Source: Dehalococcoidia bacterium (GTDB lineage: Bacteria > Chloroflexota > Dehalococcoidia > UBA2979). Taken from it: 64,000 nucleotides of DNA. A program made the position numbers and the translations under genes. The stretch spans positions 256,001-320,000 of the forward strand of contig OZ219871.1 in NCBI GenBank assembly GCA_964291495.2. The letters are read 5' to 3'. The notes beneath the pieces were generated by a model, which was not told the DNA's origin, made no database searches, and worked only from the letters and a program-made list of their open reading frames with translations. Positions 3,486-49,099 of the stretch are shown here, piece after piece; the first letter of the stretch is position 1; each line of letters opens with the position of its first letter.

Positions 3486-3561
3486 TGGCGCCCTCGGGAG
3501 GATTCGAACCTCCGGCCTCCGGATTAGAAGTCCGCTGCTCTGTCCCCTGAGCTACGAGGGC
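3486..3561 (-). tRNA. tRNA-Arg (anticodon UCU), CCA encoded
   Basis: Minus strand GCCCTCG-TAGCTCAGGGGACAGAGC-A-GCGGA-CTTCTAA-TCCGG...GGAGG-TTCGAAT-CCTCC-CGAGGGC-G-CCA; 76-nt cloverleaf. Confidence 0.95.
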
Positions 3562-31208: not shown

Positions 31209-33275
31209 TCAGGGTTCGTCGGCGAAGAGTTCGGCGCTGTAGGCCTCGAAGTCCTCGTAGAAGTCCTCTACGCGGAAGCCAAAGGTCGCCCTGAACACCG
31301 GTTTCCAGACCTCGTAGGGCGACCACTGTTCGAAGAAGTCGAAGAGGGCGGTCTCGCCTGTTCGCTCCACGAGCCACTCCACCGCGAGGTAGCTGAGCGC
31401 CGTCTTGATGCCGCTCCGAAATTCGGTCTCTTCGAGGTCTCGCAACCCCCCGAGACTTCGCCGGGCCCACCCGATGTGCGATACCCGGTGCTCGGCGATG
31501 TCCAGGCCCTTCGCCTCCGCGTGATACGCAGCCGTTGCGTACTCTTGCGCACCGACTGCCAGCCACACGGGAGCGAAGAAAAACCGGGGGAGCAGGGCCC
31601 TGATGTAGTAGATGTCTTGCCGGGTGGCGGTGCCGCACGGCTGCGCGAGGGAGACGATGGCAACGTCCCGTTCCACGAACCCGCTGCAACCGTTCCAACC
31701 GCCGAGGCCGAGGAACGACACGGGAACTTCGGCGCGTAACGTGTCGACATCAGGTCCCACATAGAGCGTGAACTCGCGCGGCTCCGTGTCGAATCGTCGG
31801 GACACGAACTCACCCACTCGCTCGAAGTCGCTGCGGATCGCCTCTCGGGCCTCGGGCGGAACGTCCCCCACGAACTCGATGACGGGTCTCGTTCCCTCAT
31901 CAGTCACATGCGGCAGCAGGGACGCCACTTCCTTGCGGTACGCCTCGAAGTCCGCGTAGAACACGTCGACCGTGGTGCCGAACGCCTCGGCGAAGGCATC
32001 CTCCCATGTCTCTTCCAACGGCAGCAGACGGTAGTACTCGAAGATCGCGGGTTCGCCCGCCAGTGCTGCAAGCCGCTCAATGGCAAGAAACGCGAGCGCG
32101 TGCGCTCCAGCGGGCTGATCGCCGGGGTCTTGGCTGACCGTCTCGAGGCTGTGCAGCGGAACCGTGGCGCGCGTTGTCTGGTTCACCTGGCCGCCCCGGG
32201 CTACCTCGTAGCCGACACTCCCCGCCACGGGTTGGTAGATGACATCGATGTACATCTCCGTGCCGATCACCAGCCAGTCCGCTCCGCCTGGATCACCGGT
32301 CGAGACTCCATGGCCGACCAGCGCTTGCACCTGACGATTCTCCAGCCTGAGCACGTCGTCCGGCCGGGCGCAGCTGGCCAGCACCACGTCCACGTAGTCG
32401 TCAGTGAGCCGCGCACAGTTCCGGTACGGTGGCGGCCGCCCGAATACCGCGACGTGGGTCGCCCGCAGCGCCTCCACGTCGGCGCCCACGTAGAGCGGAG
32501 TCTCCCTCGGAACGACCCCGAAGCGCTCGGCGAATAACGTCTGGACCCGCTCGTACTCGGCGATGATGCCCCTCTTGATGTGGGCAGGAACCTCGCCGAG
32601 GAACACGACCGGCGGATCCGCACCCGGTTGATCCCACTCGACGGCCCTCGCTGCCCGGATCATGAGCGCGTCGCCCCGGCGAAGACCGGGCCCCGTGTCC
32701 GCCTGCCCGCTCGAGCGCAGGCTGTGGCGCACGTATTGCTGTCCGGCTGCGTCCCAGCCCCACGCCGCGAGCGCCGCGTCGCCGAGCCCCTGGAGGGCTT
32801 CCCTGACCGGCGTGCCGTCGTCTCCTGTCCAGCCGACGAGGTTCAGGCCCGGGTGCAGCCGGAGCTCCGCGCCCTCCAGCGCGATCGGGCGGTCCCACCG
32901 GACCGGCGCGTCGCCACCGATCAGCAGCCATAGCCCCATGCCGGCGGTGAGCGTTGGCAACTGCTCGTACTCGCCTCGCCACGCCCGCCGGTAGCGCTCG
33001 TGCTCGGCGTCCCACGCCGAGATCCGCTCCAACTCCGGGAGCTGGTGGAACAGACGCCGGGACGCGGTCTCGGGCCCGACCCAGCCGACCATGTTCCAGC
33101 CGGGCTGCAGCTCCGTCGAGGTACGTGGCAGGACCACCCACGAGGACAAGCCGACAGACCCGGTCGCGCCGGCCGATGCGAGCCCTGCGCACAGCACCAG
33201 CGCAGCGAGGAGAGGAGTGAACCCGAGGTGGACGGGCCGACGCATGCTCACCCCCCGTGCAGTGGCTCCACTCAC
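31209..33275 (-). CDS. Secreted hypothetical protein with internal A-A-B-B duplication
   Basis: Signal peptide; LQPGWNMVGW / LHPGLNLVGW repeats; two ~220-aa repeats ending FYADFEAY / FYEDFEAY. Confidence 0.75.
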   Translation of the reverse strand: MSGATARGVSMRRPVHLGFTPLLAALVLCAGLASAGATGSVGLSSWVVLPRTSTELQPGWNMVGWVGPETASRRLFHQLPELERISAWDAEHERYRRAWRGEYEQLPTLTAGMGLWLLIGGDAPVRWDRPIALEGAELRLHPGLNLVGWTGDDGTPVREALQGLGDAALAAWGWDAAGQQYVRHSLRSSGQADTGPGLRRGDALMIRAARAVEWDQPGADPPVVFLGEVPAHIKRGIIAEYERVQTLFAERFGVVPRETPLYVGADVEALRATHVAVFGRPPPYRNCARLTDDYVDVVLASCARPDDVLRLENRQVQALVGHGVSTGDPGGADWLVIGTEMYIDVIYQPVAGSVGYEVARGGQVNQTTRATVPLHSLETVSQDPGDQPAGAHALAFLAIERLAALAGEPAIFEYYRLLPLEETWEDAFAEAFGTTVDVFYADFEAYRKEVASLLPHVTDEGTRPVIEFVGDVPPEAREAIRSDFERVGEFVSRRFDTEPREFTLYVGPDVDTLRAEVPVSFLGLGGWNGCSGFVERDVAIVSLAQPCGTATRQDIYYIRALLPRFFFAPVWLAVGAQEYATAAYHAEAKGLDIAEHRVSHIGWARRSLGGLRDLEETEFRSGIKTALSYLAVEWLVERTGETALFDFFEQWSPYEVWKPVFRATFGFRVEDFYEDFEAYSAELFADEP

Positions 33276-33384
33276 AAGGTACTACGCCAGTTCGACCGGT
33301 CTGGTTCCCTCGGATCTTTCTCACCTCGTTGACACTCCGTGGCGGCCAGCCGTAGCCTCGATCACGGTCGCAAGCGCGAAAGAG

Positions 33385-33706
33385 AGCGACGCGGAACGGG
33401 AGTAGTACGCCGTCACGCGGGGCCCAGAGAGCCGGGGCAAGGTGGAAGCCCGGCGCCCGACAGCAGCGGCGGAATGGACCCGGGAGTCTCGGCCCGAACG
33501 CCCCCAATCGACCCGACGAGGGGCAAGTAGGCGTCGACGGTGTGGGCGCCGTTATCCAGGCCCAGGGCATCGCCGCCACGCCCCGCGTCCGGGGCAGCCG
33601 GGTGGCCGTGCCTTGAATGAGCGCGAGCCGCGGGCCTCGAGGCCTCCGGCGCGCGGAACTTGGGTGGCGCCGCGAGGACCATCGCCCCAGGGCGGTGGTC
33701 CCTTTG
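33385..33706 (+). ncRNA. T-box riboswitch, Trp specifier
   Basis: Stem I with AGTA(GTA), AGAGA box, GGTGGAA loop, specifier GAA-TGG-A (TGG at 33475-33477); GAA...AGTA stem II; GCCGTTA; T-box AACTTGGGTGGCGCCGCG (33657-33674) able to pair with TCGCCCC; upstream of trpE. Confidence 0.9.
33676..33706 (+). terminator. T-box terminator hairpin
   Basis: GGACCATCGCC-ccag-GGCGGTGGTCC followed by CTTTG; overlaps the antiterminator 3' strand. Confidence 0.75.
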
Positions 33707-33739
33707 TATCCGGGACAACCCGTGTATCCGGGGCAACCC
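33705..33739 (+). repeat. Tandem 17-bp direct repeat (period 18)
   Basis: TGTATCCGGGACAACCC g TGTATCCGGGGCAACCC. Confidence 0.85.
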
Positions 33740-33768
33740 ACGGCTGGAGGAAACGAGGAGGCTTGATC

Positions 33769-33891
33769 GTGCACCGCAGCAGCCCTGCGCCGTACCGCCG
33801 CCAGTCCGCCGCACGCCTCGGCGGCGTCTGGTGGTGGCCGCGCGCCACGGGCTCACGACGCTGCATCGCACGAACAGGACGACGACGATGA
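33769..33891 (+). CDS. Putative trp leader peptide (40 aa, WWW)
   Basis: SD GAGGAGG (33755-33761), 7-nt spacer, GTG; MHRSSPAPYRRQSAARLGGVWWWPRATGSRRCIARTGRRR*; stop overlaps trpE ATG (ATGA). Confidence 0.75.
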   Translation: MHRSSPAPYRRQSAARLGGVWWWPRATGSRRCIARTGRRR

Positions 33892-35378
33892 CGACACCGA
33901 CCGCAACCCGCACCATGCCGACCCGCGAGGAGCTGCACCGCCTCGCGGCCGCCGGCGAGGGCAACATCGCGGCGATCTACCGCGAGGTGCGCGCCGACCT
34001 GGAGACGCCTGTCTCCGCCTACCTCAAGATCGCGCGCGGCAAGTACTCCTTCCTCCTCGAGTCCGTCGAGGGCGGCGAGCGCATGGGGCGCTACTCCTAC
34101 ATCGGCACCGAGCCGTACCGGGTGAGCGCCCTCAACCACGAGGACGGCGATCCGCTGAGCGTGATCGAGGACGAGATCGCCGAGTTGCGGCCGGTCGCGG
34201 CGCCAGGGCTGCCGCGCTTCCACGGCGGGGCCGTCGGCTACCTCGGCTACGAGACCGTCGGGCACTTCGAGCGCATCCCGCGCCCGGAGACGGACGCGCT
34301 GGGCGTGCCCGAGTCGTGGCTGATGTTCACCGACACGCTGCTCGTCTTCGACCACGTGCTGCACACCATCAAGGTGATCTCGCACGCCCGCCTCGACGGC
34401 GACGTCGACGCCGCCTACGACGCGGCGGTCGCGAAGATCGAGCGCCTTACGGAGCGCCTCGAGGCGCCGCTCGCCGCGCTGCCCTACGTTCCGCTCGACG
34501 GGCCGACCGGGCAGCCGATCGGGTCCAACTGGGCGCACGAAGACTACCTGCGAGCCGTCGAGCGCACGAAGCAGTACATCGTCGAAGGCGACATCATCCA
34601 GGCGGTGATCGCGCAGCGCTTCTCGCGCGAGACCGGCGTGCACCCCGTGGAGCTGTACCGCTCGCTGCGCGTCGTCAACCCCTCGCCCTACATGTACCTG
34701 CTGCAGTTCGACGACATCGCCATCATCGGCGCCTCGCCGGAGCTGCTGGTGAAGGTCGAGGACGGCGTCGTCGACGTGCACCCGATCGCCGGAACGCGCC
34801 CGCGCAGCGGCTCGCCCGACGAGGACGAGCGGCTGGCCGAGGAGCTGCGCAACGATCCCAAGGAGATCGCCGAGCACGTGATGCTGCTCGACCTCGGGCG
34901 CAACGACGTCGGGCGCGTCTCGAAGTCCGGCTCGGTCGAGGTGACGCAGAGCTTCGACCTCGAGCTCTACTCGCACGTGATGCACCTCGTGAGCCACGTG
35001 CGGGGCGAGCTGCGCGAGGAGATGAGCGGCTACGACGCGCTGCGTTCGGCCTTCCCGGCGGGAACGGTCTCCGGCGCGCCCAAGATCCGCGCGATGGAGA
35101 TCATCGCCGAGCTGGAGCCGGACCAGCGCGGCCCCTACGCGGGGGCCGTCGGCTTCTTCGACCTCTCGGGCAACGTCGAGACCTGCATCACGATTCGCAC
35201 GGTGCTGCTGCGCGACGGCGTCGCCTACGTGCAGGCCGGCGGCGGCATCGTCTACGACTCCGACCCGCAGCGCGAGTTCGAGGAGACGCAGCACAAGGCG
35301 CGCGCGTTGATGGCCGCCATCGACGACGCCGAGGCGCGAGCGGGCGTCAGCACGCCCTCGGGAAGCCTGGGCTACTGA
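33888..35378 (+). CDS. trpE: Anthranilate synthase component I
   Basis: DLETPVS, FLLESVEGG, NPSPYMY, PIAGTR, AEHVMLLDLGRND, FPAGTVSGAPK. Confidence 0.95.
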   Translation: MTTPTATRTMPTREELHRLAAAGEGNIAAIYREVRADLETPVSAYLKIARGKYSFLLESVEGGERMGRYSYIGTEPYRVSALNHEDGDPLSVIEDEIAELRPVAAPGLPRFHGGAVGYLGYETVGHFERIPRPETDALGVPESWLMFTDTLLVFDHVLHTIKVISHARLDGDVDAAYDAAVAKIERLTERLEAPLAALPYVPLDGPTGQPIGSNWAHEDYLRAVERTKQYIVEGDIIQAVIAQRFSRETGVHPVELYRSLRVVNPSPYMYLLQFDDIAIIGASPELLVKVEDGVVDVHPIAGTRPRSGSPDEDERLAEELRNDPKEIAEHVMLLDLGRNDVGRVSKSGSVEVTQSFDLELYSHVMHLVSHVRGELREEMSGYDALRSAFPAGTVSGAPKIRAMEIIAELEPDQRGPYAGAVGFFDLSGNVETCITIRTVLLRDGVAYVQAGGGIVYDSDPQREFEETQHKARALMAAIDDAEARAGVSTPSGSLGY

Positions 35379-36283
35379 TGGACGCCAAGCCGCTTGTCGC
35401 ATCCGCCGCGCTGCGCCGCAGCGACGGCCGCGTGCTGCTCGTGCGCCACGCCCGCGAGGAGCGCAGCGGCGCGGGCAGCCGCTGGACGCTGCCCTCGGAG
35501 CCCGTCGCCGACGACGAGACGGCCGAGCAGGCGCTGGCGCGGCTGCTGGCCGACCGCCTCCGCCTGGCGCCCGACCGCCGCGAGTTCAACGACTCGCTGG
35601 CGCTGCCGGCCGCGATCGCCAACGTTTTCATCTGCAGCTCCTGGCGCGGCGACCCGCAGTACGCGCCTGCGGACTTCCTCGACGCCGCCTGGGCGCCTCC
35701 CGGCACCGCGCCGGGCATCGACCTCGTCGAGGGTGTGCGTGAGTGGCTGCGCGGCTTGCCCGCAGACGGCGGTGCGCTCCCGAAGAGCGCCAGCGTCGAG
35801 GACCTGACGGCCGAGCTGATCACAGCGCGCGATGCGCTGCGGGCGGCCTACCTGGCGCTCGACGAGCCCTGGCGCGACGTCAGCCTCGATGGCGAGTGGG
35901 CGCCGGTGGACCTGCTGACGCACTGCGCCACGGTCGAGGCCTACTACGCCTCCGAGGCGCGCGAGCTGCTGGAGACGCCCGGCCACACCTGGCGCCCCTT
36001 CAACCCTGCGCAGGGCGAAGCGGAGCGCGCCGGCCGCGCCCGCCCGGCCAGCGATCGCGCCGAAGTCGAGCGCCTCGACGTGCTGCGGGCGGAGACGCTC
36101 GCCTGGATCGAGGAACTCACGCAGGACGAGCTGGACGCCTACGGCGACCACGCCGATCGCGGCGCGGTGCGCGTCGGCGACCGGATCGCGCGCATCGCGG
36201 CCCACGACCGCGCGCACACGCAGCAACTTGCGAAGATGCTTGCCGCCTCGCAGGCGGATCCCGACGACGACGAGGAGGCCTGA
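35378..36283 (+). CDS. NUDIX-like + DinB-family fusion protein
   Basis: GRVLLVR..WTLP..V.DDET (degenerate Nudix box); C-terminal GEW...DLLTHC and AAHDRAH. Confidence 0.7.
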   Translation: MDAKPLVASAALRRSDGRVLLVRHAREERSGAGSRWTLPSEPVADDETAEQALARLLADRLRLAPDRREFNDSLALPAAIANVFICSSWRGDPQYAPADFLDAAWAPPGTAPGIDLVEGVREWLRGLPADGGALPKSASVEDLTAELITARDALRAAYLALDEPWRDVSLDGEWAPVDLLTHCATVEAYYASEARELLETPGHTWRPFNPAQGEAERAGRARPASDRAEVERLDVLRAETLAWIEELTQDELDAYGDHADRGAVRVGDRIARIAAHDRAHTQQLAKMLAASQADPDDDEEA

Positions 36284-36377
36284 CCATGCTTCTCCTGATC
36301 GATAACGTCCGCGGCCGATCCGTGGCTTACTCCCGCAGCTTGTTTGGAGCGTTCCCATGCTCTTGCTGATCGATAAC
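36284..36377 (+). repeat. Duplicated 5' end of trpG (two MLLLIDN starts 71 nt apart)
   Basis: ccATGCTTCTCCTGATCGATAAC (ATG 36286) versus ccATGCTCTTGCTGATCGATAAC (ATG 36357). Confidence 0.85.
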
Positions 36378-36950
36378 TACGATTCGTTCACCTACAACCT
36401 CTACCAGTACCTCTCCGAGCTGGGCGCGACTGTCGAGGTCGTGCGCAACGACGAGGCGAGCGTCGAGGACTGCCTGGCGATGGGAGCGGAGCGGATCGTC
36501 GTCTCGCCGGGGCCCTGCACCCCTGCGGAGGCGGGGATCTCGATCGACCTGATCCGGGCGGCGGCCGGACAGGTGCCGCTCCTCGGCGTCTGTCTCGGGC
36601 ACCAGAGCATCGGCGAGGCGTTCGGCGCGCGGGTCGGGCCGGCAGGCGAGATCATGCACGGCAAGATCTCGACGGTGACGCACGACGGCAAGGGCGTCTT
36701 CGAGTCGCTGCCGCAGCCGTTCGAGGCGATTCGCTATCATTCACTCGCGATCGAGCCGGACACGCTGCCCGCCGAGCTGGAGGTCACGGCACGCGCGGAG
36801 AGCGGAGTGATCATGGGCGTCCGCCACCGCACGCTGCCGATCGAAGGCGTTCAGTTCCACCCCGAGTCCATCATGACGACGACCGGCCACGACTTGCTGC
36901 GCAACTTCCTCGCGATGGAGTCGCCGCGCACGGCGGCGGCCCCGGCGTGA
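36357..36950 (+). CDS. trpG: Anthranilate synthase component II (glutamine amidotransferase)
   Basis: IDNYDSFTYNL, SPGP, GVCLGHQ, MHGK, RYHSL, QFHPES. Confidence 0.95.
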   Translation: MLLLIDNYDSFTYNLYQYLSELGATVEVVRNDEASVEDCLAMGAERIVVSPGPCTPAEAGISIDLIRAAAGQVPLLGVCLGHQSIGEAFGARVGPAGEIMHGKISTVTHDGKGVFESLPQPFEAIRYHSLAIEPDTLPAELEVTARAESGVIMGVRHRTLPIEGVQFHPESIMTTTGHDLLRNFLAMESPRTAAAPA

Positions 36951-36968
36951 GGCGAGAGGCGGCCTGAG

Positions 36969-37349
36969 ATGGGCACCTTCCACCAGCAAATCGAACTCGC
37001 CGCGAGGCCTGAGGGGCCATTCGAGACGCTGGACGCGCTAGTCGACACCGGTGCGACCTACACGCTCGTGCCAGCATCCATCCTGAGAAGGCTCGGAATT
37101 AGGCCGACGGACAGCCTCACATTCATCATCGCCGATGGCAGTCGAATGCAGCAGGAGATTGGCGAAGCCACCGTCCGGCTCGACGGACGCGAGCGCACGA
37201 CTCTCGTTGTGTTTGGCGACGAGGGCGCCACCGTGCTGTTGGGCGCCTACACACTGGAAGCATTCGCGCTAGGAGTCGATCCGCGAAACCGCCAGTTGAT
37301 CCCCGTGGACGGCTACCTCGTGGGGTTGCGACACGGGGGCGGCTCATGA
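36969..37349 (+). CDS. Clan AA (retropepsin-like) aspartyl protease
   Basis: ALVDTGATYT, ADGS, LLGAYTLE; lower GC3 than neighbours. Confidence 0.85.
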   Translation: MGTFHQQIELAARPEGPFETLDALVDTGATYTLVPASILRRLGIRPTDSLTFIIADGSRMQQEIGEATVRLDGRERTTLVVFGDEGATVLLGAYTLEAFALGVDPRNRQLIPVDGYLVGLRHGGGS

Positions 37350-38371
37350 TCGGCGAGGCGATCGGCGCGCTCGTCGAGGAGGGGCGCGACCTCAGCGAGG
37401 ACGAGGCCGCCGCCGTCATGAACGAGATCATGGAGGCGGAGGCGACGCCCGCGCAGTTCGGCGCCTTCGTCCTCGCGCTGCGCCACAAGGGCGAGACCGT
37501 CGACGAGGTCGTCGGAATGGCGCGGGTGATGCGCGAGCACTCGCTGAGGGCGCACGTCAGCGCCCGCCCGCTGCTCGACACCTGCGGGACCGGCGGCTCC
37601 GGGCTCAACACGTTCAACGCCTCGACGGCGGCCGCGATCGTCGCCGCCTCGGTGGGCGCGAAGGTCGCCAAGCACGGCAACCGCGGGATGACCTCGCAGT
37701 CCGGCTCGGCGGACCTGCTCGAGGCGCTCGGCGCGGAGATCGCGCTCGCACCGGAGCAGGTCGCGAGCTGCATCGAGCGCACCGGCGTCGGCTTCCTCTT
37801 CGCGCAGTCGTTCCATCCCGCGATGCGCTTCGCGGCGCCGCTGCGGCGCGAGATCGGCGTGCGCACCGTCTTCAACATCCTCGGCCCGCTCACCAATCCC
37901 GCCTCGGCCAACTGCCACGTGCTGGGCACGCCCCGCGTCGAGACCGCCGAGCTGCTCGCCGGGGCGCTGGCGCGCCTCGGCGTCCGTCACGCCCTCGTGG
38001 TCTCGAGCGACGAGGGCCTCGACGAGATCTCGGTTTCAGCGCCGACGACGCTGTTCGAGGTGCGCGGCCTGGAGGTCACGCAGCACAGCGTCACGCCGCG
38101 CGACCTCGGCGTCGCGGAGCGCACGCTCGACGAGGTGCGCGGCGGCAGCGCCGAGGAGAACGCGGACGCGCTGCGCGCGGTGCTGCGCGGCGACGGCTCC
38201 GGCTCAGCCGCACTGCGCGACTTCATCGCCGTCAACACCGGCGCGGGGCTCTACGTCTGCGGCCTCGCCGCCTCGATCCAGCAGGGCGCCGAGCAGGCGC
38301 TGACGGCGATCGACGAGGGCGAGGCGGCCGCCCGCCTCGGCGCCTTCGTCGAGGCCACCCGGCGCAGCTGA
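37346..38371 (+). CDS. trpD: Anthranilate phosphoribosyltransferase
   Basis: DTCGTGG, FNAST, AKHGNR, RTVFNILGPLTNP, GLDE. Confidence 0.96.
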   Translation: MIGEAIGALVEEGRDLSEDEAAAVMNEIMEAEATPAQFGAFVLALRHKGETVDEVVGMARVMREHSLRAHVSARPLLDTCGTGGSGLNTFNASTAAAIVAASVGAKVAKHGNRGMTSQSGSADLLEALGAEIALAPEQVASCIERTGVGFLFAQSFHPAMRFAAPLRREIGVRTVFNILGPLTNPASANCHVLGTPRVETAELLAGALARLGVRHALVVSSDEGLDEISVSAPTTLFEVRGLEVTQHSVTPRDLGVAERTLDEVRGGSAEENADALRAVLRGDGSGSAALRDFIAVNTGAGLYVCGLAASIQQGAEQALTAIDEGEAAARLGAFVEATRRS

Positions 38372-38375
38372 CGCG

Positions 38376-39263
38376 ATGACGGCGCACCCTTCGGCAACCT
38401 CCGGCGGCCCGCGCGAGACGGGTACCGTGCTGGACCGCATCGTCGCCGACCGGCGGCTGCGGCTTGCCGAAGACCAGCGTGCCGTGCCTCGCGACGCCCT
38501 CGAAGGACTCGCCGCCGCGCAGCCGCCCGCGATCGACTTCGTCACACGGCTGACGGGCGGGCGCGCCGCCTCGCCCGAGGGCGCGCGGCTGCGGCTGATC
38601 GGCGAGATCAAGCGCGCCTCTCCCTCGCGGGGGGTGATCGACGGCGATCTCGACGCCGCGGCGCAGGCGCGCGAGTACGCCGCAGCCGGAGCGTCCGCCG
38701 TCTCCGTGCTGACCGAGCCGAGCTTCTTCCAGGGCGGCATCGCGGACCTCGCAGCCGCCTCGGAGGCGTTCGGCGGCGACACGGACCGGCCGGCGCTGCT
38801 GCGCAAGGACTTTCTCTTCGACCCCTACCAGGTCGTCGAGGCGCGCGCGCACCGCGCGGACGCGCTGTTGCTAATCGCGATGATGCTGCCGCCCCGGGCC
38901 CTCACCGATCTGCTGGCGCTCACGCACGCGCAGGGCATGGAGGCGCTGGTCGAGGTGCACGACGCCGACGAACTCGGCGCCGCCGTCGACGCCGGAGCGC
39001 GCGTGATTGGCGTCAACAACCGCGATCTGCGGACGTTCGACGAGGACCTCGCGACGTTCGAGCGGCTCGCGCCGCTGGCGCCGTCCGGGGTCACGCTCGT
39101 CGCCGAGTCGGCGATCCAGAGCGCCGCCGACGCCGAGCGGATGGCCAAGGCCGGCGCGCACGCGCTGCTCGTCGGCGAGGCGCTGGTGCGCACGGGCGAT
39201 GTCGCCGCCAAGGCGCGCGAGCTGATGCTCGCGCCCGCTCGCAGCGGGGTGGGCGGGCGATGA
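38376..39263 (+). CDS. trpC: Indole-3-glycerol-phosphate synthase
   Basis: EIKRASPSRG, SVLTE, LRKDF, LVEVH, GVNNRDL, AES. Confidence 0.96.
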   Translation: MTAHPSATSGGPRETGTVLDRIVADRRLRLAEDQRAVPRDALEGLAAAQPPAIDFVTRLTGGRAASPEGARLRLIGEIKRASPSRGVIDGDLDAAAQAREYAAAGASAVSVLTEPSFFQGGIADLAAASEAFGGDTDRPALLRKDFLFDPYQVVEARAHRADALLLIAMMLPPRALTDLLALTHAQGMEALVEVHDADELGAAVDAGARVIGVNNRDLRTFDEDLATFERLAPLAPSGVTLVAESAIQSAADAERMAKAGAHALLVGEALVRTGDVAAKARELMLAPARSGVGGR

Positions 39264-40006
39264 CGCTCGTCAAGATCTGCGGTAACCGCACACCCGCCGA
39301 CGTACTCAATGCGGCCGAGGCCGGCGCCGACTTCGTGGGGATGATCTTCGCCGAGTCGAAGCGTCAGGTGGGCCTGGGCGAGGCGCAGGCGATGGTGCGG
39401 GCCCTCGGCGATCCGCTCGCCGCGCACGAGATCGCGCTGCCGCCGCCCGCTCGCGGCCACGCGCGGGAAGACGAGCGCGAGTGGTTCCGCCACGGCGCGC
39501 AGGTGATCGAGGCCTACCTCGAGGCGAAACGCCCACTCACCGTCGGCCTCTTCGCCGACCAGCCGATCGAGGAGGTCAACGAGCTGGCGCTCGAGTCCGG
39601 TGTCGATCTGGTGCAACTCTCCGGCGACGAGAGCTGGGAAGACTGCCTGCTCGTCGCCCGGCAGGTGATCCAGGTGGTGCACGTCTCGCCGCTCGACTCG
39701 CCCTCGGACCCGATGAGGTACGTCGAGCCCGGGTTCGCGATCGCGCTCATGCTGGACTCGGCGCACGGCCCTTATCGGGGCGGATCGGGCCGCACATTCG
39801 ACTGGGAGGTCGCGCGCATCGTTTCCGCCGAGCTGCCGATGCTGCTGGCCGGCGGCCTGACGCCCGAGAACGTCGGCGAGGCGATCGAGCGCGTCCGCCC
39901 CTGGGCCGTCGACGTATCGACCGGGACGGAGCGCGACGGGCGCAAGGATCCGGAGCGCGTGCGCGAGTTCATCGAGGCTGTGCGCCGCCAGGACGCCACA
40001 GCCTGA
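39260..40006 (+). CDS. trpF: Phosphoribosylanthranilate isomerase
   Basis: VKICG, VQLSG, GGSGRTFDW, LAGGLTPENV, VDVSTG. Confidence 0.93.
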   Translation: MTLVKICGNRTPADVLNAAEAGADFVGMIFAESKRQVGLGEAQAMVRALGDPLAAHEIALPPPARGHAREDEREWFRHGAQVIEAYLEAKRPLTVGLFADQPIEEVNELALESGVDLVQLSGDESWEDCLLVARQVIQVVHVSPLDSPSDPMRYVEPGFAIALMLDSAHGPYRGGSGRTFDWEVARIVSAELPMLLAGGLTPENVGEAIERVRPWAVDVSTGTERDGRKDPERVREFIEAVRRQDATA

Positions 40007-45555: not shown

Positions 45556-47717
45556 AGCGCCTGATCGAGAGCCGCTTCCGGATCTCGACCCAGCTCTATC
45601 TGGCGATGGGTGGCGCGGTCGTGCTGACCCTGGCCGCCAGTCTGGTCGGCTGGTTCTCGTTCAATGAGGTCGGCGAGGTGCAGAGCCAGGTCAACGAGGG
45701 CAGCGTGCCGGAACTGGCGGCCGCGTTCGGTGTCGCACAGTACAGCGGCAACCTGGTCGCCGCCGCTCCCAACCTCACCGTCGCCGCCACTCCCGAGGAG
45801 TTCGACCAGGTGGTCCGCAACATCGACGCCGCCTACGCCTCCTTCGAGGAGCACATGGTCATGCTCGAGCAAGGCAACGCCGAGCGCGATCGTGTACTGA
45901 GCATCCGGGAGCGCGCCGACACGATCATCGCCAACATCGAAGCCATTCAGACCGAGACATCCGGCGTCTTCGACCTGACCGCTCGCCGTGAGGCGCTGCA
46001 ACTCGAACTGACCCAGGTGCGCGCACGGCTGGACGACGCGCTCGCCCCGGCGATCGACGACCAGCTCTTCTACATCCTGACCGGCTGGCGCAACCTCTCG
46101 GCGCCCCCGGCCGCTCGCGAGGAGCACCTGTCCGAGGACCAGATGGTCCGCTACCGGCGTCTGGCCGAGTTGCAGGCGGACGTGAACATCGCCACCGAAC
46201 TGCTCGCGAACGCCTTCACACTCCCAGATGCCTCCCTGATCGAGCCGCTCAGGGAGCGCTTCGAGTCCACCGCCAGCCGCATCGAGAGGAATCTCTCGGC
46301 CCTCGTCGGTTCGTCCTTCTACGTTGAGACCGCGCCCATCTTCGACCAGCTGTTCGCCCTTGGCTCGGGCGAGGACAGCGTGTTCGGCGTGTTCGCGGCC
46401 GAACTGAGGATCGCGGAACGGCAGGCGGAGCTGCTCGGCCTCAACCGCGATCTCTCCGTGGAGCTCGTTGCGGAGGTGAACGGCCTGGTCGGCGCGGCCC
46501 AGGCAAGCACCGAGGAAGCCACCGAGGCGTCCACCCAGGCGATCTTCACCGGCCGCGTGCTGCTGCTCGCCATTATCGCGATCAGCATCACCGGCGCGCT
46601 GCTCATCACCTGGCTCTTCATTGGCCGCGTGCTGCTGCGCCGCATCGGGATGCTCTCCCAGTGGATGCGTGACATGGCCCAGGGTGACCTCGAGGTCCGC
46701 GCCGACATCGGCGGACGGGACGAGGTCGCCGAGATGGCCGCCGCCCTCGATGTGTTCCGGCGACACGCCCTTGAGGTGCAGCGCCTCAACCTCGTCGAGC
46801 AGCTCGCCGAGGAACTTCAGGGTAAGAACGACGAGCTGGAAGACGTGCTGGCCCAGCTGCAGCAGGCGCAGGACCAGATCGTCCTGCGCGAGAAGCTGGC
46901 CGCCCTCGGCGAGCTGACCGCAGGCGTGGCCCACGAGATCCGTAACCCGCTGAACTTCGTGAACAACTTCTCCGAGGCCTCCGGCGAGCTGGTGGACGAA
47001 CTGAAGGAGATTCTCGAGGAGGAAGGCGTCGAGCTCACGGAGGAGCAGCGCGATCTCGTTGACGAGATCACGAGCGATCTCACCAGCAACGTCCAGCGCA
47101 TCCACTCGCACGGCGAGCGCGCGAATCGCATCGTGCAGGACATGCTGGCCATGGGCCGGGGTTCGCAGGAGTGGCAGGCCGTGGAAATCAACGCGCTGGT
47201 GGACCAGCACGCGCTGCTGGCCTATCACAGCGCCCGCGCGACGAACCCCGACTTCCAGCTCGACATCCAGCGGGAATTCGATCCGGACGCGGGCGAGCTC
47301 GAGGTCATCCCGCAGGACCTGGGGCGCGTGTTCCTCAACATGGTGAGCAACGCCTGCCACGCGACCAACGAGCGGCGCGTCGCCGGCGAGGGAGACTCCG
47401 AACGCTACTGGCCGACGCTCACCCTGATCACGCGACGCGAGGACGGCGAGGTCCAGATCCGCATCCGCGACAACGGCCCCGGCATCCCGCCCGACATCAT
47501 CGAGAAGATCTTCAATCCCTTCTTCACCACCAAGCCTACGGACCAGGGCACCGGCCTCGGGCTGGCGATCTCGAGCGACATCGTGCGCCGCCACGGCGGC
47601 CACATCAGCGTGGAGTCGGAGCCGGGCGAGTTCACCGAGATGATCGTCGCGCTGCCGCTGGAGCGGCCGCCGGAGCTGGATCCGACCGCGCTGGCCGCCC
47701 ACCCCGGCTTCGAGTAG
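45540..47717 (+). CDS. Membrane sensor histidine kinase (long helical extracytoplasmic domain, HAMP, HisKA, HATPase)
   Basis: Two TMs, [40 protein letters not shown]. Confidence 0.92.
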
Positions 47718-47884
47718 TCGCCGAACGCCGCCCGCTCCCGGTCCCGCCCTCGCGGCAGCCCGTGAGGCAGGTCAGCGGTATCATCGAGAGCACCGCGCGC
47801 GCGGCGAAGAGGGTGCGACATGGGCGCGTTCCCGGTACCGATCGAACCGCCGCCCATCGTCGCTGCAGCGACGCAGGCGTCCGC

Positions 47885-49099
47885 ATGACCGCCACCACGG
47901 ACCGTCCCGCCCTCCCCGACGAACGCGGCTACTTCGGCGCCTTCGGCGGTCGCTACGTCCCCGAGACGCTGATGCCCGCCCTCGCCGAGCTGGAGGAGGC
48001 CTACGCCGCCGCCCGCGAGGACGCGACGTTCGGCGAGGAGCTCGACCGGCTGCTGGGCGAGTTCGTCGGCCGGCCCACGCCGATTACGCGCGCCGACCGA
48101 TTGGCACAGCGCATCGCGGGCGGAGGCGCGCCGATCGTCTACCTCAAGCGCGAGGATCTGACCCACACCGGCGCGCACAAGATCAACGCCGCGTTGGCGC
48201 AGGGCCTGCTCGCGCAGCGCATGGGCAAGCCGCGCATCGTCGCCGAGACGGGCGCCGGTCAGCACGGCGTGGCCACCGCCACCGCCTGCGCGTTGCTCGG
48301 CCTCGAATGCGTCGTCTACATGGGCGCGGAGGACGTGCGGCGGCAGGCGCTCAACGTCTTCCGCATGAAGCTGCTGGGCGCCGAGGTGCGCACCGTCGAG
48401 TCCGGCTCGCGCACGCTCAAGGACGCGATCAACGAGGCGATCCGCGACTGGGTCACCAACGTGCGCACCACGCACTACCTGCTCGGCTCGGTCGTCGGAC
48501 CGCACCCCTACCCGCTGTTGGTCCGTAACTTCCAGGCCGTGATCGGCCACGAGGCGCGCACGCAACTGCTCGAGGCCGAAGGACGGCTGCCCACGGTCGC
48601 GCTCGCCTGCGTCGGTGGCGGGTCGAACGCGATCGGGCTGTTCCACGCCTTCGTCGACGACCCGGTGCGGCTGATCGGCGTCGAGGCGGCGGGCGAGGGG
48701 CTGGACGGGCGGCACGCGGCCCCGCTGGCGGCGGGCGAGCCCGGCGTGCTGCACGGCTCACGCTCCTACCTGCTGCAGGACGAGCACGGACAGGTCACCG
48801 AGGCGCACTCGATCTCGGCTGGCCTCGACTACCCCGGCGTTGGGCCGGAGCACTCCTGGCTGAAGGTCAGCGAGCGCGCCGAGTACGTCTCCGTGACCGA
48901 CGAGGAGGCGCTCGCCGCCTTCCGCCTGCTGAGCGAGACCGAGGGCATCATCCCCGCGCTGGAGCCCGCGCACGCGCTCGCCCACCTCGCGAAGCTGCTG
49001 CCCGAGCTGGGCGAGGACGAGTTGGTGCTCGTCAACCTCAGCGGGCGCGGCGACAAGGACATGGGCACGGTCGCCGACGCGCTCGGCGTCACGCTGTAG
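47885..49099 (+). CDS. trpB: Tryptophan synthase beta chain
   Basis: [45 protein letters not shown]. Confidence 0.97.

What the first reader, a model, noticed from the sequence alone, without database searches (positions are those of the whole stretch)
33385..33891. Two-tier tRNA-Trp sensor: T-box riboswitch followed by a WWW leader ORF overlapping the trpE start
Seen: a Trp T-box (specifier UGG) with terminator. Downstream is an ORF with a strong SD (GAGGAGG, 7-nt spacer, GTG33769) encoding MHRSSPAPYRRQSAARLGGVWWWPRATGSRRCIARTGRRR. Codons 21-23 are TGG TGG TGG (33829-33837), and its TGA overlaps the trpE ATG. trpE has only a weak SD (AGGA) inside this ORF. CCGCCGCCAG (about 33795-33804) can pair with the Trp-codon tract, and GTGGC/GCCAC (33834-33848) is a competing helix. 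No intrinsic terminator follows the ORF. Established: trp operons usually use either a T-box or a leader-peptide attenuator; the T-box plus three-Trp leader combination is known from the Bacillus subtilis rtpA (at) operon. Inference: transcription is gated by uncharged tRNA-Trp, and trpE initiation is then gated by ribosome stalling (for example relief of start occlusion, or Rho access). I do not know of this arrangement on trpE in this lineage.
Basis: partly seen in the sequence, partly recalled or inferred. Interest (0 to 1): 0.85.

Follow-up and report, generated by a model that had tools for sequence, protein, structure and literature searches.

The report
Trp T-box plus Trp-codon leader before trpE
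The tryptophan-synthesis operon of this uncultured Chloroflexota bacterium carries a tRNA-sensing T-box riboswitch followed by a short translated reading frame with three tryptophan codons that ends on the trpE start codon, and this pairing is conserved in many relatives.

Summary
A Trp-specific T-box (specifier UGG 33475-33477, bulge UGGC, terminator 33676-33701) is followed by an SD-led 40-codon ORF (GTG33769-TGA33891). Its codons 21-23 are TGG, and its stop overlaps the trpE ATG33888.

It is not chance. Among 68 distinct Dehalococcoidia trpE loci, 50 have an SD-led upstream ORF with a Trp-codon cluster ending at or near the trpE start. The same filter passes 1.0% of dinucleotide shuffles, 2/68 reverse complements and 0/19 trpE loci of other phyla. 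Apart from short N-terminal motifs within subgroups, the peptides diverge. The Trp cluster, the SD and, with few exceptions, the reading frame persist. In one genus the leader lies between trpS and trpE, with the T-box upstream of trpS.

The mechanism is unresolved. No terminator follows the leader, no RNA structure is conserved across clades, and modelled stalling does not open the trpE ribosome site. My best reading is a second, ribosome-based tRNA-Trp sensor that controls trpE translation, like B. subtilis rtpLP.

I found no description in six literature searches. Verdict: a new variant of a known kind, interest about 0.6.

The parts
33389..33487 (+). T-box Stem I with specifier loop GAA-UGG-A (UGG at 33475-33477)
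   Evidence: RF00230 positions 7-103, 35.8 bits, E 3.3e-6, below gathering 93. GAATGGA is found at the equivalent place in 51 of the 53 relatives that carry the T-box motif.
33657..33689 (+). T-box sequence and antiterminator, with bulge UGGC at 33665-33668
   Evidence: RF00230 positions 183-216, 14.4 bits, E 1.1. The bulge is complementary to the GCCA 3' end of tRNA-Trp(CCA).
33676..33711 (+). T-box terminator hairpin (11 pairs, 8 G-C) with a short U-containing tail, CTTTGTATCC
   Evidence: Terminator scan. Relatives have longer T runs at the same place.
33705..33739 (+). 18-nt tandem duplication between the terminator and the leader SD; lineage-specific and probably irrelevant to the mechanism
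   Evidence: TRF period 18, 1.9 copies, 94% match. A single copy is present in L002. One contig of DNA run X3 lacks 18 nt at 33705.
33755..33761 (+). Shine-Dalgarno sequence GAGGAGG of the leader ORF, 7 nt before GTG33769
   Evidence: The SD plus GTG-CAT start is conserved in 18 of 19 genomes of the genus.
33769..33891 (+). Leader ORF of 40 codons plus TGA; no Pfam or NCBIfam match
   Evidence: Six of the 7 length classes of start-to-trpE distance within the genus keep the frame.
33829..33837 (+). Three consecutive Trp codons (leader codons 21-23), 59 nt before the trpE ATG
   Evidence: WWW is present in 14 of the 18 genus genomes that carry the leader; the others have W-C-W (3) or W-R-W (1).
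33838..33947 (+). C-rich, G-poor tract running from the Trp codons into the first 60 nt of trpE
   Evidence: C/G is 1.25 and 1.69 here. Medians over 47 loci are 1.52 and 1.69. Only 3% of 110-nt genome windows reach 1.5.
33875..33878 (+). trpE's own Shine-Dalgarno sequence (AGGA), inside the last codons of the leader ORF
   Evidence: Relatives have GGAG or AGGAG 10-12 nt upstream of the start.
33888..35378 (+). trpE (anthranilate synthase component I); its ATG overlaps the leader TGA as ATGA
   Evidence: Pfam Chorismate_bind 1e-91 and Anth_synt_I_N 1.2e-30. The start is conserved in the genus.
36357..40006 (+). Downstream trp genes: trpG 36357-36950, trpD 37346-38371, trpC 38376-39263, trpF 39260-40006
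   Evidence: Pfam GATase, Glycos_transf_3, IGPS and PRAI.

Best explanation
The trp operon leader has two sensors of tRNA-Trp in series.

Tier 1 is a Trp-specific T-box. Uncharged tRNA-Trp pairs its CCA anticodon with the UGG specifier and its GCCA end with the UGGC bulge. This stabilises the antiterminator and lets RNA polymerase pass the terminator at 33676-33711.

Tier 2 is a well-translated 40-codon leader ORF with a strong SD. Its three Trp codons make the ribosome's progress depend on charged tRNA-Trp. Its stop codon lies on the trpE start.

My most likely mechanism is inferred, not shown. When Trp-tRNA is plentiful, a steady stream of leader ribosomes runs over trpE's own SD and terminates on it, which keeps independent initiation at trpE low. 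When Trp-tRNA is scarce, the lead ribosome stalls about 50-60 nt upstream of the trpE start. Traffic stops, and the G-poor, weakly structured trpE ribosome-binding site is left free for new 30S subunits. This is the logic shown for rtpLP/rtpA in B. subtilis, here applied directly to the first biosynthetic gene.

What is shown: the elements exist, match the organism's tRNA-Trp, and are conserved. What is inferred: that the ORF is translated, that stalling raises expression, and that the effect is on translation.
For: T-box identity:
- RF00230 matches with GAA-UGG-A and the T-box sequence.
- The UGGC bulge is complementary to the tRNA-Trp GCCA end.
- The terminator is found.
- The same element occurs in 12 of 16 relatives scanned at E<=0.01. 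It scores above gathering (107 and 113.7 bits) in two more distant class members.

Leader reality:
- 50 of 68 distinct Dehalococcoidia trpE loci pass an automatic filter: SD-led ORF, W.?W, stop within 50 nt of the trpE start. The filter passes 65/6800 dinucleotide shuffles, 2/68 reverse complements and 0/19 trpE loci of other phyla. WWW occurs in 26/68 loci against 1/6800 shuffles.
- Five of the 18 filter failures still carry such an ORF on inspection.
- Apart from short N-terminal motifs kept within subgroups, the peptides share only the Trp cluster.
- Within the genus, leader-start-to-trpE distances are 119, 131, 116, 113, 143 and 128 nt, all the same modulo 3. One genome has 112.
- A subgroup keeps an M-S-I-F start using Ser codons AGC, TCC and TCG.

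Geometry:
- The leader stop overlaps the trpE start as ATGA in 30 of the 50 leaders. It ends 8, 11 or 17 nt past the first base of the trpE start in 14, and directly abuts the start in 3.
- The first Trp codon lies 53-65 nt before the trpE start in 39 of 50.
- trpE keeps its own SD.
- The tract from the Trp codons to trpE +60 is G-poor.

Modularity: in 5 loci the leader sits between trpS and trpE. In the one of these that I checked, a Trp T-box lies upstream of trpS.

Specificity: the two other T-box candidates of the genome (upstream of ileS and a thrS-like gene) have no cognate-codon leader.

Precedent: a passage of PMC2311275 states that rtpA is under a Trp T-box and that complete translation of the three-Trp-codon RtpLP prevents RtpA translation.
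Against: - There is no expression or ribosome-occupancy data. The one RNA-library run held only assembled contigs.
- An ATGA stop/start overlap is the classic geometry of positive translational coupling, not occlusion. In rtpLP, by my recollection, the stop lies upstream of the SD rather than on the start.
- ATGA-overlapping upstream ORFs without cognate codons also precede trpB and ileS in this genome. In 71% G+C DNA the overlap by itself is therefore not special.
- The middle Trp codon is lost in 4 of 11 genomes of the closest clade. One relative keeps only a single Trp codon (L054).
- One genome of the genus (G006) has neither a T-box nor a leader.
- The 68 loci are related to one another, so the counts overstate independence.
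- The Rfam score of the window's T-box is well below gathering.
Confidence: 0.5

Rival explanations
1. Positive coupling only. The leader exists to deliver ribosomes to trpE by termination-reinitiation at the ATGA overlap and to unwind the GC-rich RNA. The Trp codons then make TrpE synthesis fall, or merely wobble, when Trp-tRNA is scarce, or they have a minor tuning role.
For: Stop/start overlap or near-overlap occurs in 47 of 50 leaders. Passages of PMC4833913 propose that leader genes close to a structural gene raise its translation by reinitiation and that stalling at regulatory codons lowers it. Similar non-cognate upstream ORFs precede trpB and ileS.
Against: This does not explain why a Trp-codon cluster, and little else, is conserved specifically before trpE and is absent from the leaders of ileS and the thrS-like gene. 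Lowering TrpE synthesis during Trp starvation runs against the logic of every characterised amino-acid leader peptide (established knowledge). trpE also keeps its own SD.
Confidence: 0.15
2. Rho-dependent attenuation or polarity. The position of the leader ribosome decides whether Rho can load on the C-rich, G-poor tract between the Trp codons and early trpE, so the second tier acts on transcription rather than translation.
For: Rho is encoded (PF07497, 109.9 bits). The tract from the Trp codons to trpE +60 has median C/G of 1.52 and 1.69 in 47 loci, whereas only 3% of genome windows reach 1.5. No intrinsic terminator follows the leader.
Against: A ribosome stalled at the Trp codons would leave the C-rich tract naked. 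That predicts more termination under starvation, which is the wrong sign. The tract is equally well explained as a way to keep the trpE ribosome site unstructured, or by the Thr/Pro/Ala-rich TrpE N-terminus. No Rho test was possible.
Confidence: 0.15
3. RNA-switch translational attenuation of the erm/cat type. In free RNA the trpE SD and start are sequestered by pairing, and a ribosome stalled on the Trp codons (with or without a queue behind it) frees them.
For: In the closest clade, the consensus fold pairs the Trp codons with CCGCCGCCAG and pairs the leader start region with the stretch just 5' of the trpE SD (41 pairs, one compensatory change, in L004). For L001, L004, L010, L059 and L093, blocking the leader from its start to the Trp codons lowers the modelled opening energy of the trpE site by 3-12 kcal/mol.
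Against: Across 20 representative loci, the median opening energy is 8.7 (free), 8.6 (stall) and 7.4 (stall plus queue) kcal/mol, with several loci rising. The predicted partners of the Trp codons lie upstream in one clade, downstream in its sister clade, and are mixed elsewhere. The more diverse M-S-I-F subgroup gives only 15 consensus pairs at -6.7 kcal/mol.
Confidence: 0.1
4. No function. The ORF and the TGG run are by-products of GC-rich sequence downstream of a T-box.
For: Long open frames are common here; the leader frame is open for 149 codons. One TGGTGGTGG per 64 kb is within chance.
Against: Conservation of the SD, start, frame and Trp cluster in 50 of 68 loci, against 1% of shuffles and 0/19 loci of other phyla. 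Most indels within the genus preserve the frame. The leader is also present between trpS and trpE.
Confidence: 0.03

Closest known systems
B. subtilis at operon: Trp T-box plus leader peptide rtpLP upstream of rtpA (anti-TRAP)
   Same: A Trp-specific T-box is followed in the same transcript by a short ORF with three Trp codons, and the end of that ORF lies at the ribosome site of the next gene. This gives two sensors of tRNA-Trp in series (passages of PMC2311275 and PMC10327191).
   Different: - The regulated gene here is trpE itself, not an anti-TRAP.
- TRAP was not found in this 93.7%-complete genome.
- The leader is 30-50 codons, whereas rtpLP is 10 (the figure of 10 is recalled).
- The stop overlaps the start codon rather than lying upstream of the SD (rtpLP geometry is recalled).
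- The lineage is Chloroflexota, not Bacillota.
- No sequence relationship is claimed.
Classical trp leader-peptide attenuators (trpL of Enterobacteria; Corynebacterium and Streptomyces trp leaders)
   Same: An SD-led short ORF with tandem Trp codons lies directly upstream of trpE. PMC1262725 (passages) reports classical candidate attenuators before trp operons in Corynebacterium and Streptomyces.
   Different: There is no intrinsic terminator after the leader and no room for one, because the stop overlaps the trpE start. No conserved set of alternative hairpins was found. The leader is combined with a T-box.
T-box-controlled trpE in Dehalococcoides and other Dehalococcoidia
   Same: The Trp T-box before trpE was reported for Dehalococcoides strains CBDB1 and 195 (passage of PMC2494555). 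I see it directly before trpE in 7 class-level relatives.
   Different: In those relatives the terminator is followed at once by the trpE SD and start, with no leader ORF. The leader is an addition, seen only among relatives whose TrpE is at least about 69% identical to the window's.
Leader peptides without terminators in high-G+C Actinobacteria (for example, cys operons of Mycobacterium)
   Same: These are conserved cognate-codon leader ORFs that lack the other attenuator parts, and their mode of action is unknown (passages of PMC1262725).
   Different: They involve a different amino acid and phylum, have no T-box upstream, and have no reported stop/start overlap.
Tandem T-boxes before trp operons of some bacilli
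   Same: Two serial sensors of tRNA-Trp act on one trp operon leader. A passage of PMC2494555 mentions 2 or 3 adjacent T-boxes before trpE in bacilli.
   Different: The second sensor here is a translated ORF read by the ribosome, not a second riboswitch.

Membership tests
T-box riboswitch (Rfam RF00230) | Stem I with a specifier loop presenting a codon followed by a purine | tested here: met
   The alignment to model positions 7-103 shows GAA-UGG-A at 33472-33478. The same is seen in all four alignments printed for relatives.
T-box riboswitch (Rfam RF00230) | Conserved T-box sequence whose bulge UGGN pairs with the tRNA 3' end NCCA | tested here: met
   The T-box sequence at 33657-33689 has bulge UGGC. 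The genome's tRNA-Trp(CCA) ends in GCCA.
T-box riboswitch (Rfam RF00230) | Terminator hairpin that competes with the antiterminator, followed by a U tract | tested here: met
   Hairpin 33676-33701 shares its 5' arm with the antiterminator. The tail CTTTGTATCC is short in U.
T-box riboswitch (Rfam RF00230) | Score at or above the curated gathering threshold (93 bits) | tested here: not met
   There is no hit at gathering. The element scores 35.8 and 14.4 bits in two pieces. About 170 nt of GC-rich insert separates the pieces. More distant class members reach 107 and 113.7 bits.
T-box riboswitch (Rfam RF00230) | tRNA-dependent antitermination demonstrated | not testable with these tools
   Requires in vitro transcription with charged and uncharged tRNA-Trp.
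rtpLP-type translational sensor (B. subtilis at operon) | Short SD-led ORF with three Trp codons downstream of a Trp T-box | tested here: met
rtpLP-type translational sensor (B. subtilis at operon) | Leader stop close enough to the next gene's ribosome site for a terminating ribosome to cover it | tested here: met
   TGA overlaps the trpE ATG. In 47 of 50 leaders the stop ends from 1 nt before to 17 nt past the first base of the trpE start.
rtpLP-type translational sensor (B. subtilis at operon) | Complete leader translation inhibits translation of the downstream gene | not testable with these tools
   Requires reporter fusions or in vitro translation.
rtpLP-type translational sensor (B. subtilis at operon) | Regulated product is anti-TRAP, acting on TRAP | tested here: not met
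   The downstream gene is trpE. TRAP (PF02081) was not found in the 93.7%-complete genome. This is therefore an analogue, not a member.
Classical trp leader-peptide transcription attenuator | Leader ORF with tandem Trp codons before trpE | tested here: met
Classical trp leader-peptide transcription attenuator | Intrinsic terminator between the leader stop and the structural gene | tested here: not met
   The stop overlaps the trpE start. No terminator-like site lies between 33702 and 34000.
Classical trp leader-peptide transcription attenuator | Conserved alternative hairpins (1:2, 2:3, 3:4) | tested here: inconclusive
   Predicted partners of the Trp codons differ between clades. Consensus folds show one compensatory pair in the closest clade and almost no shared structure in a diverse subgroup.
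Coupling upstream ORF (reinitiation leader) | Stop of the upstream ORF within a few nt of the downstream start | tested here: met
Coupling upstream ORF (reinitiation leader) | Downstream gene depends on the upstream ORF because it lacks an accessible SD of its own | tested here: not met
   trpE keeps AGGA, GGAG or AGGAG 10-16 nt upstream of its start in 48 of the 49 leader-bearing loci tabulated (L053 shows only GGA). Dependence itself could not be tested.

The most novel reading that the evidence does not exclude
A terminator-less, portable Trp-codon leader module arose within one high-G+C group of Dehalococcoidia. It controls TrpE synthesis purely by ribosome traffic at an overlapping stop/start, with no RNA switch. 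It works either behind a T-box or between trpS and trpE. Together with the T-box it gives a multiplicative, two-signal response: uncharged tRNA-Trp read by the RNA and charged tRNA-Trp read by the ribosome. This would be an independent re-invention of the rtpLP principle, applied directly to a biosynthetic gene.
Probability: 0.4. Interest if true: 0.7.

Novelty: new variant of a known kind. Interest (0 to 1): 0.6.

Why it matters
Trp operon control is the textbook case of RNA-based regulation. Known solutions use a repressor plus a leader-peptide attenuator, TRAP, or T-boxes.

A T-box followed by a Trp-codon leader was known only for the anti-TRAP gene of B. subtilis. Finding the same two-tier logic placed directly on trpE in many uncultured Chloroflexota suggests three things:
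- Serial sensing of uncharged and charged tRNA-Trp is a recurrent design.
- Leader peptides may regulate without any terminator, or without any conserved RNA switch that I could detect, in GC-rich genomes.
- The leader is a module that can be moved within an operon.

It also gives a concrete, small (about 180 nt) construct for testing how a stop/start overlap can act negatively or positively, depending on ribosome flux.

Tried and rejected
1. Rfam at gathering threshold on the whole window gave no T-box, only a tRNA at 3489-3561. The T-box rests on sub-threshold hits plus its defining features.

2. Relief of trpE start occlusion by a stalled ribosome. I blocked a 30-nt footprint at every leader codon and computed the energy needed to open trpE -15..+5 in 20 representative loci. 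Trp-codon positions were no better than other positions. With 80 nt of upstream context, medians were 8.7 (free), 8.6 (stall) and 7.4 (stall plus queue) kcal/mol. I rejected this as a general mechanism. Such modelling is crude for 70% G+C RNA.

3. Search for a conserved RNA structure. Per-locus pairing probabilities and RNAalifold on two groups gave clade-specific folds only.

I repeated it on 20 loci.

5. Expression evidence. The look-up of sequencing runs listed one run on record as RNA (X22, share 0.06) and one guessed to be RNA (X23, share 0.05). Both are kept as contigs. Laid at 90% likeness, X22 has a 192-nt contig on 33819-33981 with 12 differences, across the Trp codons and the trpE start. 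Contigs of a relative in an RNA library do not show transcription, ends or levels, so I draw nothing from them or from the uncovered bins.

6. Leader peptide against Pfam and NCBIfam gave no family even at E 10.

7. TRAP and TrpR were not found in the 93.7%-complete genome. This is no proof of absence.

8. Cognate-codon leaders behind the genome's other T-box candidates (upstream of ileS and a thrS-like gene): none.

9. A TnaC-like free-Trp-sensing arrest peptide was considered and set aside. The distance from the Trp cluster to the stop varies (about 14 to 27 residues) and no C-terminal residue is conserved except what the ATGA context imposes.

10. Promoter scan: no sigma-70-like site in 33200-34000 by the tool's criteria. 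By eye, TTGACA at 33329-33334 is followed after 18 nt by TAGCCT. This is unverified.

11. Literature. Six searches found no paper describing a T-box plus Trp-codon leader at trpE. Two works that might mention it were not held: PMC2650889, the MMBR review listed in the references of PMC10327191, and PMC2271356, an id I recalled for a comparative T-box study. Chen and Yanofsky 2003 and 2004 were seen only as references. Supplementary files were not consulted.

A second call sent in the same turn returned a format error. No earlier findings were used.
Full report
WHAT IS IN THE SEQUENCE

- The leader SD GAGGAGG (33755-33761) is followed after 7 nt by GTG33769.
- The frame runs 40 codons to TGA 33889-33891 (P0001). 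Codons 21-23 are TGG TGG TGG (33829-33837).
- The TGA overlaps ATG 33888-33890 of a 496-aa protein with Chorismate_bind (1e-91) and Anth_synt_I_N domains, which is TrpE.
- trpG, trpD, trpC and trpF follow. trpB lies about 8 kb further on.
- trpE has its own AGGA at 33875-33878.
- Mechanically the leader frame is open from 33442 (149 codons), as expected at 71% G+C. GTG33769 is singled out by its SD and by conservation, described below.

THE T-BOX

Rfam reports no T-box at its gathering score. The permissive scan finds RF00230 in two pieces, both under the gathering score of 93:
- Stem I at 33389-33487 (35.8 bits, E 3.3e-6), with the specifier loop aligned as GAA-UGG-A.
- The T-box sequence/antiterminator at 33657-33689 (14.4 bits, E 1.1).

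The pieces are separated by about 170 nt of GC-rich insert.

The defining features are nevertheless there:
- The specifier UGG matches anticodon CCA.
- The bulge UGGC is complementary to the GCCA end of the genome's only predicted tRNA-Trp.
- A hairpin at 33676-33701 shares its 5' arm with the antiterminator and is followed by CTTTGTATCC.

Relatives support the call:
- 12 of 16 relatives scanned have the element at E<=0.01 (32-57 bits). All four printed alignments show GAA-UGG-A.
- More distant members of the class reach 80.8-113.7 bits, two of them above gathering.
- A T-box before trpE was reported for Dehalococcoides in 2008 (passage of PMC2494555).

WHO CARRIES IT

The genome is an uncultured Chloroflexota of class Dehalococcoidia. 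The nearest public records are MAGs labelled Dehalococcoidia or Chloroflexi. Parts of the stretch are held by runs labelled sponge metagenome (X3 was laid).

IS THE LEADER MORE THAN CHANCE?

TGGTGGTGG occurs once in the window against 0.23 expected, and 67 times on both strands of the 3.08-Mb genome. That is about 0.0013 per 120-nt strand segment. This alone is suggestive only. The comparative data decide the matter.

I collected trpE loci from 41 related genomes and from 79 public contigs. After removing duplicates, 68 distinct Dehalococcoidia loci remained. I applied one automatic filter, which required all of:
- a start codon preceded by an SD-like tetramer;
- W.?W in frame;
- a stop within 50 nt of the trpE start.

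Results of the filter:

| Set | W.?W leader | WWW leader |
|---|---|---|
| Distinct Dehalococcoidia loci | 50 of 68 | 26 of 68 |
| Dinucleotide shuffles | 65 of 6800 | 1 of 6800 |
| Reverse-complemented upstream regions | 2 of 68 | 0 of 68 |
| trpE loci of other phyla | 0 of 19 | not counted |

For the other-phyla loci the stop-position requirement was dropped.

Cross-tabulated with the T-box motif:

| T-box motif | Leader | Loci |
|---|---|---|
| yes | yes | 45 |
| yes | no | 8 |
| no | yes | 5 |
| no | no | 10 |

On inspection, 5 of the 8 'T-box only' loci do have an SD- or start-led ORF ending on the trpE start, with WW, W-R-W, W-x2-W, three spaced W, or a single W (L050, L073, L067, L074, L054). 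The other 3 (L027, L029, L069) have the T-box within 69-124 nt of trpE, with no room for a leader.

These loci are related to each other, so the counts are not independent. Even so, apart from short N-terminal motifs kept within subgroups, the peptides share little beyond the Trp cluster.

EVIDENCE THAT THE FRAME IS READ

- Within the genus (19 genomes including this one), 18 have the T-box plus leader and one (G006) has neither.
- The distance from the conserved GTG-CAT start to the trpE ATG takes the values 119, 131, 116, 113, 143 and 128 nt, all equal modulo 3. One genome has 112 nt, and its leader then ends 41 nt inside trpE.
- A subgroup from other genera keeps an M-S-I-F start while using AGC, TCC and TCG for Ser.
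- The Trp cluster is not invariant. In the closest clade it is WWW in 7 of 11 genomes, W-C-W in 3 and W-R-W in 1. In the sister clade it is WWW in 7 of 7.

GEOMETRY

- The leader stop overlaps the trpE start as ATGA in 30 of the 50 leaders. It ends 8, 11 or 17 nt past the first base of the trpE start in 14, abuts the start in 3, and lies elsewhere in 3.
- The first Trp codon of the cluster lies 53-65 nt before the trpE start in 39 of 50.
- trpE keeps GGAG, AGGAG or AGGA 10-12 nt upstream of its start in most loci.
- The stretch from the Trp codons to trpE +60 is C-rich and G-poor. Median C/G is 1.52 and 1.69 in 47 loci. Only 3% of 110-nt genome windows reach 1.5.

A caution: ATGA-overlapping upstream ORFs without cognate codons also precede trpB (47820-47888) and ileS. 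The overlap itself is therefore cheap in this genome.

MODULARITY AND ORIGIN

In 5 loci without a nearby T-box, the gene upstream of the leader is trpS, recognised by its KMSKS motif. In the one I extended (L116), a Trp T-box lies upstream of trpS (35.6 bits, E 1.8e-5, GAA-UGG-A). The order there is T-box, trpS, Trp-codon leader, trpE. The leader therefore works at the trpE junction, wherever the T-box is.

In class-level relatives outside this group, either the T-box is followed directly by the trpE SD and start (7 loci), or trpS abuts trpE without a leader (5 loci). The leader looks like an addition made within one high-G+C group, those whose TrpE is at least about 69% identical to the window's.

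The two other T-box candidates of this genome (upstream of ileS and a thrS-like gene) have no cognate-codon leader.

HOW IT MIGHT WORK

No terminator-like site follows the leader, and there is no room for one. This rules out classical attenuation.

- A 30-nt footprint on the Trp codons does not lower the energy needed to open the trpE ribosome site in 20 representative loci.
- Medians were 8.7 (free), 8.6 (stalled) and 7.4 kcal/mol (stalled with the whole upstream leader blocked). There were gains in some loci and losses in others.

Predicted partners of the Trp codons are not conserved:
- They lie upstream in the window's clade.
- They lie downstream in the sister clade and are mixed elsewhere.
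- A diverse subgroup shares almost no structure.

What is conserved is ribosome geometry, not RNA shape: a strong leader SD, Trp codons roughly two ribosome lengths before trpE, a stop on the trpE start, and a G-poor trpE ribosome site with its own SD.

The best-documented precedent with this logic is rtpLP of B. subtilis. [quoted passage not shown]

I therefore favour traffic and termination of leader ribosomes over the trpE ribosome site as the repressing state, and stalling at the Trp codons as the inducing state. Confidence in this whole reading is about 0.5. Within it, I rate the reality of the elements at about 0.9, Trp-dependent stalling as the signal at about 0.75, and the occlusion mechanism in particular at about 0.4.

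The main objection is that ATGA overlaps usually couple positively. Passages of PMC4833913 argue exactly that for leader genes, and note that stalling would then lower reinitiation. That sign, however, is opposite to what a biosynthetic operon needs.

A Rho-based second tier cannot be excluded. Rho is encoded and there is a C-rich tract. But a stalled ribosome would expose that tract, which again gives the wrong sign.

TRAP and TrpR were not found in the 93.7%-complete genome.

NOVELTY

Six full-text searches returned no description of a T-box combined with a Trp-codon leader at trpE, in Chloroflexota or elsewhere. Two comparative T-box works were not held.

I rate it a new variant of a known kind. 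Each part is known, and the combination is known for rtpA. New are its placement on trpE, the stop/start overlap, the lack of any terminator or conserved switch, and its portability to the trpS-trpE junction.

VERDICT

The two-tier interpretation is supported by comparative evidence. Interest is 0.6.

Noticed in passing
window 33705-33739: An 18-nt tandem duplication (1.9 copies, 94% match) lies between the T-box terminator and the leader SD. The close relative L002 has one copy, and one contig of DNA run X3 lacks 18 nt at 33705. It is a recent, polymorphic duplication.
   Followed up: partly
window 47820-47888 (trpB start at 47885): A 22-codon upstream ORF with no Trp codon ends in TGA overlapping the trpB ATG (ATGA). 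It follows a histidine-kinase-like gene that ends at 47717. No T-box lies here. It shows that ATGA-overlapping upstream ORFs occur without cognate codons in this genome.
   Followed up: partly
L112 (G000:C5:1053171-1053468 and downstream): A full-length but weak T-box match (27.8 bits) lies upstream of ileS. By eye the specifier looks like AUC. An 11-codon ORF without Ile codons and without an SD ends in TGA on the ileS ATG. A third, partial T-box match (24.4 bits) precedes a thrS-like gene (L113).
   Followed up: partly
L022, L052, L055, L057, L078; L116 1995-2308: In some relatives the operon order is Trp T-box, trpS, Trp-codon leader, trpE. The leader lies 130-170 nt after the trpS stop. 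The T-box upstream of trpS was checked only in L116.
   Followed up: partly
window 35379-36356: About 980 nt between trpE and trpG hold only ORFs with no Pfam match (35743-36369 on +, 35394-35807 on +, 35372-36358 on -). It is an unexplained gap inside the trp operon.
   Followed up: no
window 36969-37349 (+): A 126-aa ORF between trpG and trpD matches retropepsin-like aspartyl protease domains (PF13975 at 6.4e-10, PF13650 at 1.7e-08). This is an odd passenger in a trp operon.
   Followed up: no
window 33838-33947 and the same place in 47 relatives: The stretch from the Trp codons into early trpE is C-rich and G-poor (median C/G about 1.5-1.7). It could be a low-structure ribosome landing zone, a Rho loading site, or a by-product of a Thr/Pro/Ala-rich TrpE N-terminus.
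   Followed up: partly
window 31209-33275 (-): The divergent upstream gene (688 aa) has no Pfam match. By eye its N-terminus looks like a signal or lipoprotein peptide. The trp promoter must lie in the roughly 110 nt between it and the T-box. The tool found no sigma-70-like site there.
   Followed up: no
G006 (L023): One genome assigned to the same genus has neither the T-box nor the leader before its trpE (74% identical). Either the whole control region was lost or replaced, or trpE sits in a different context there.
   Followed up: no
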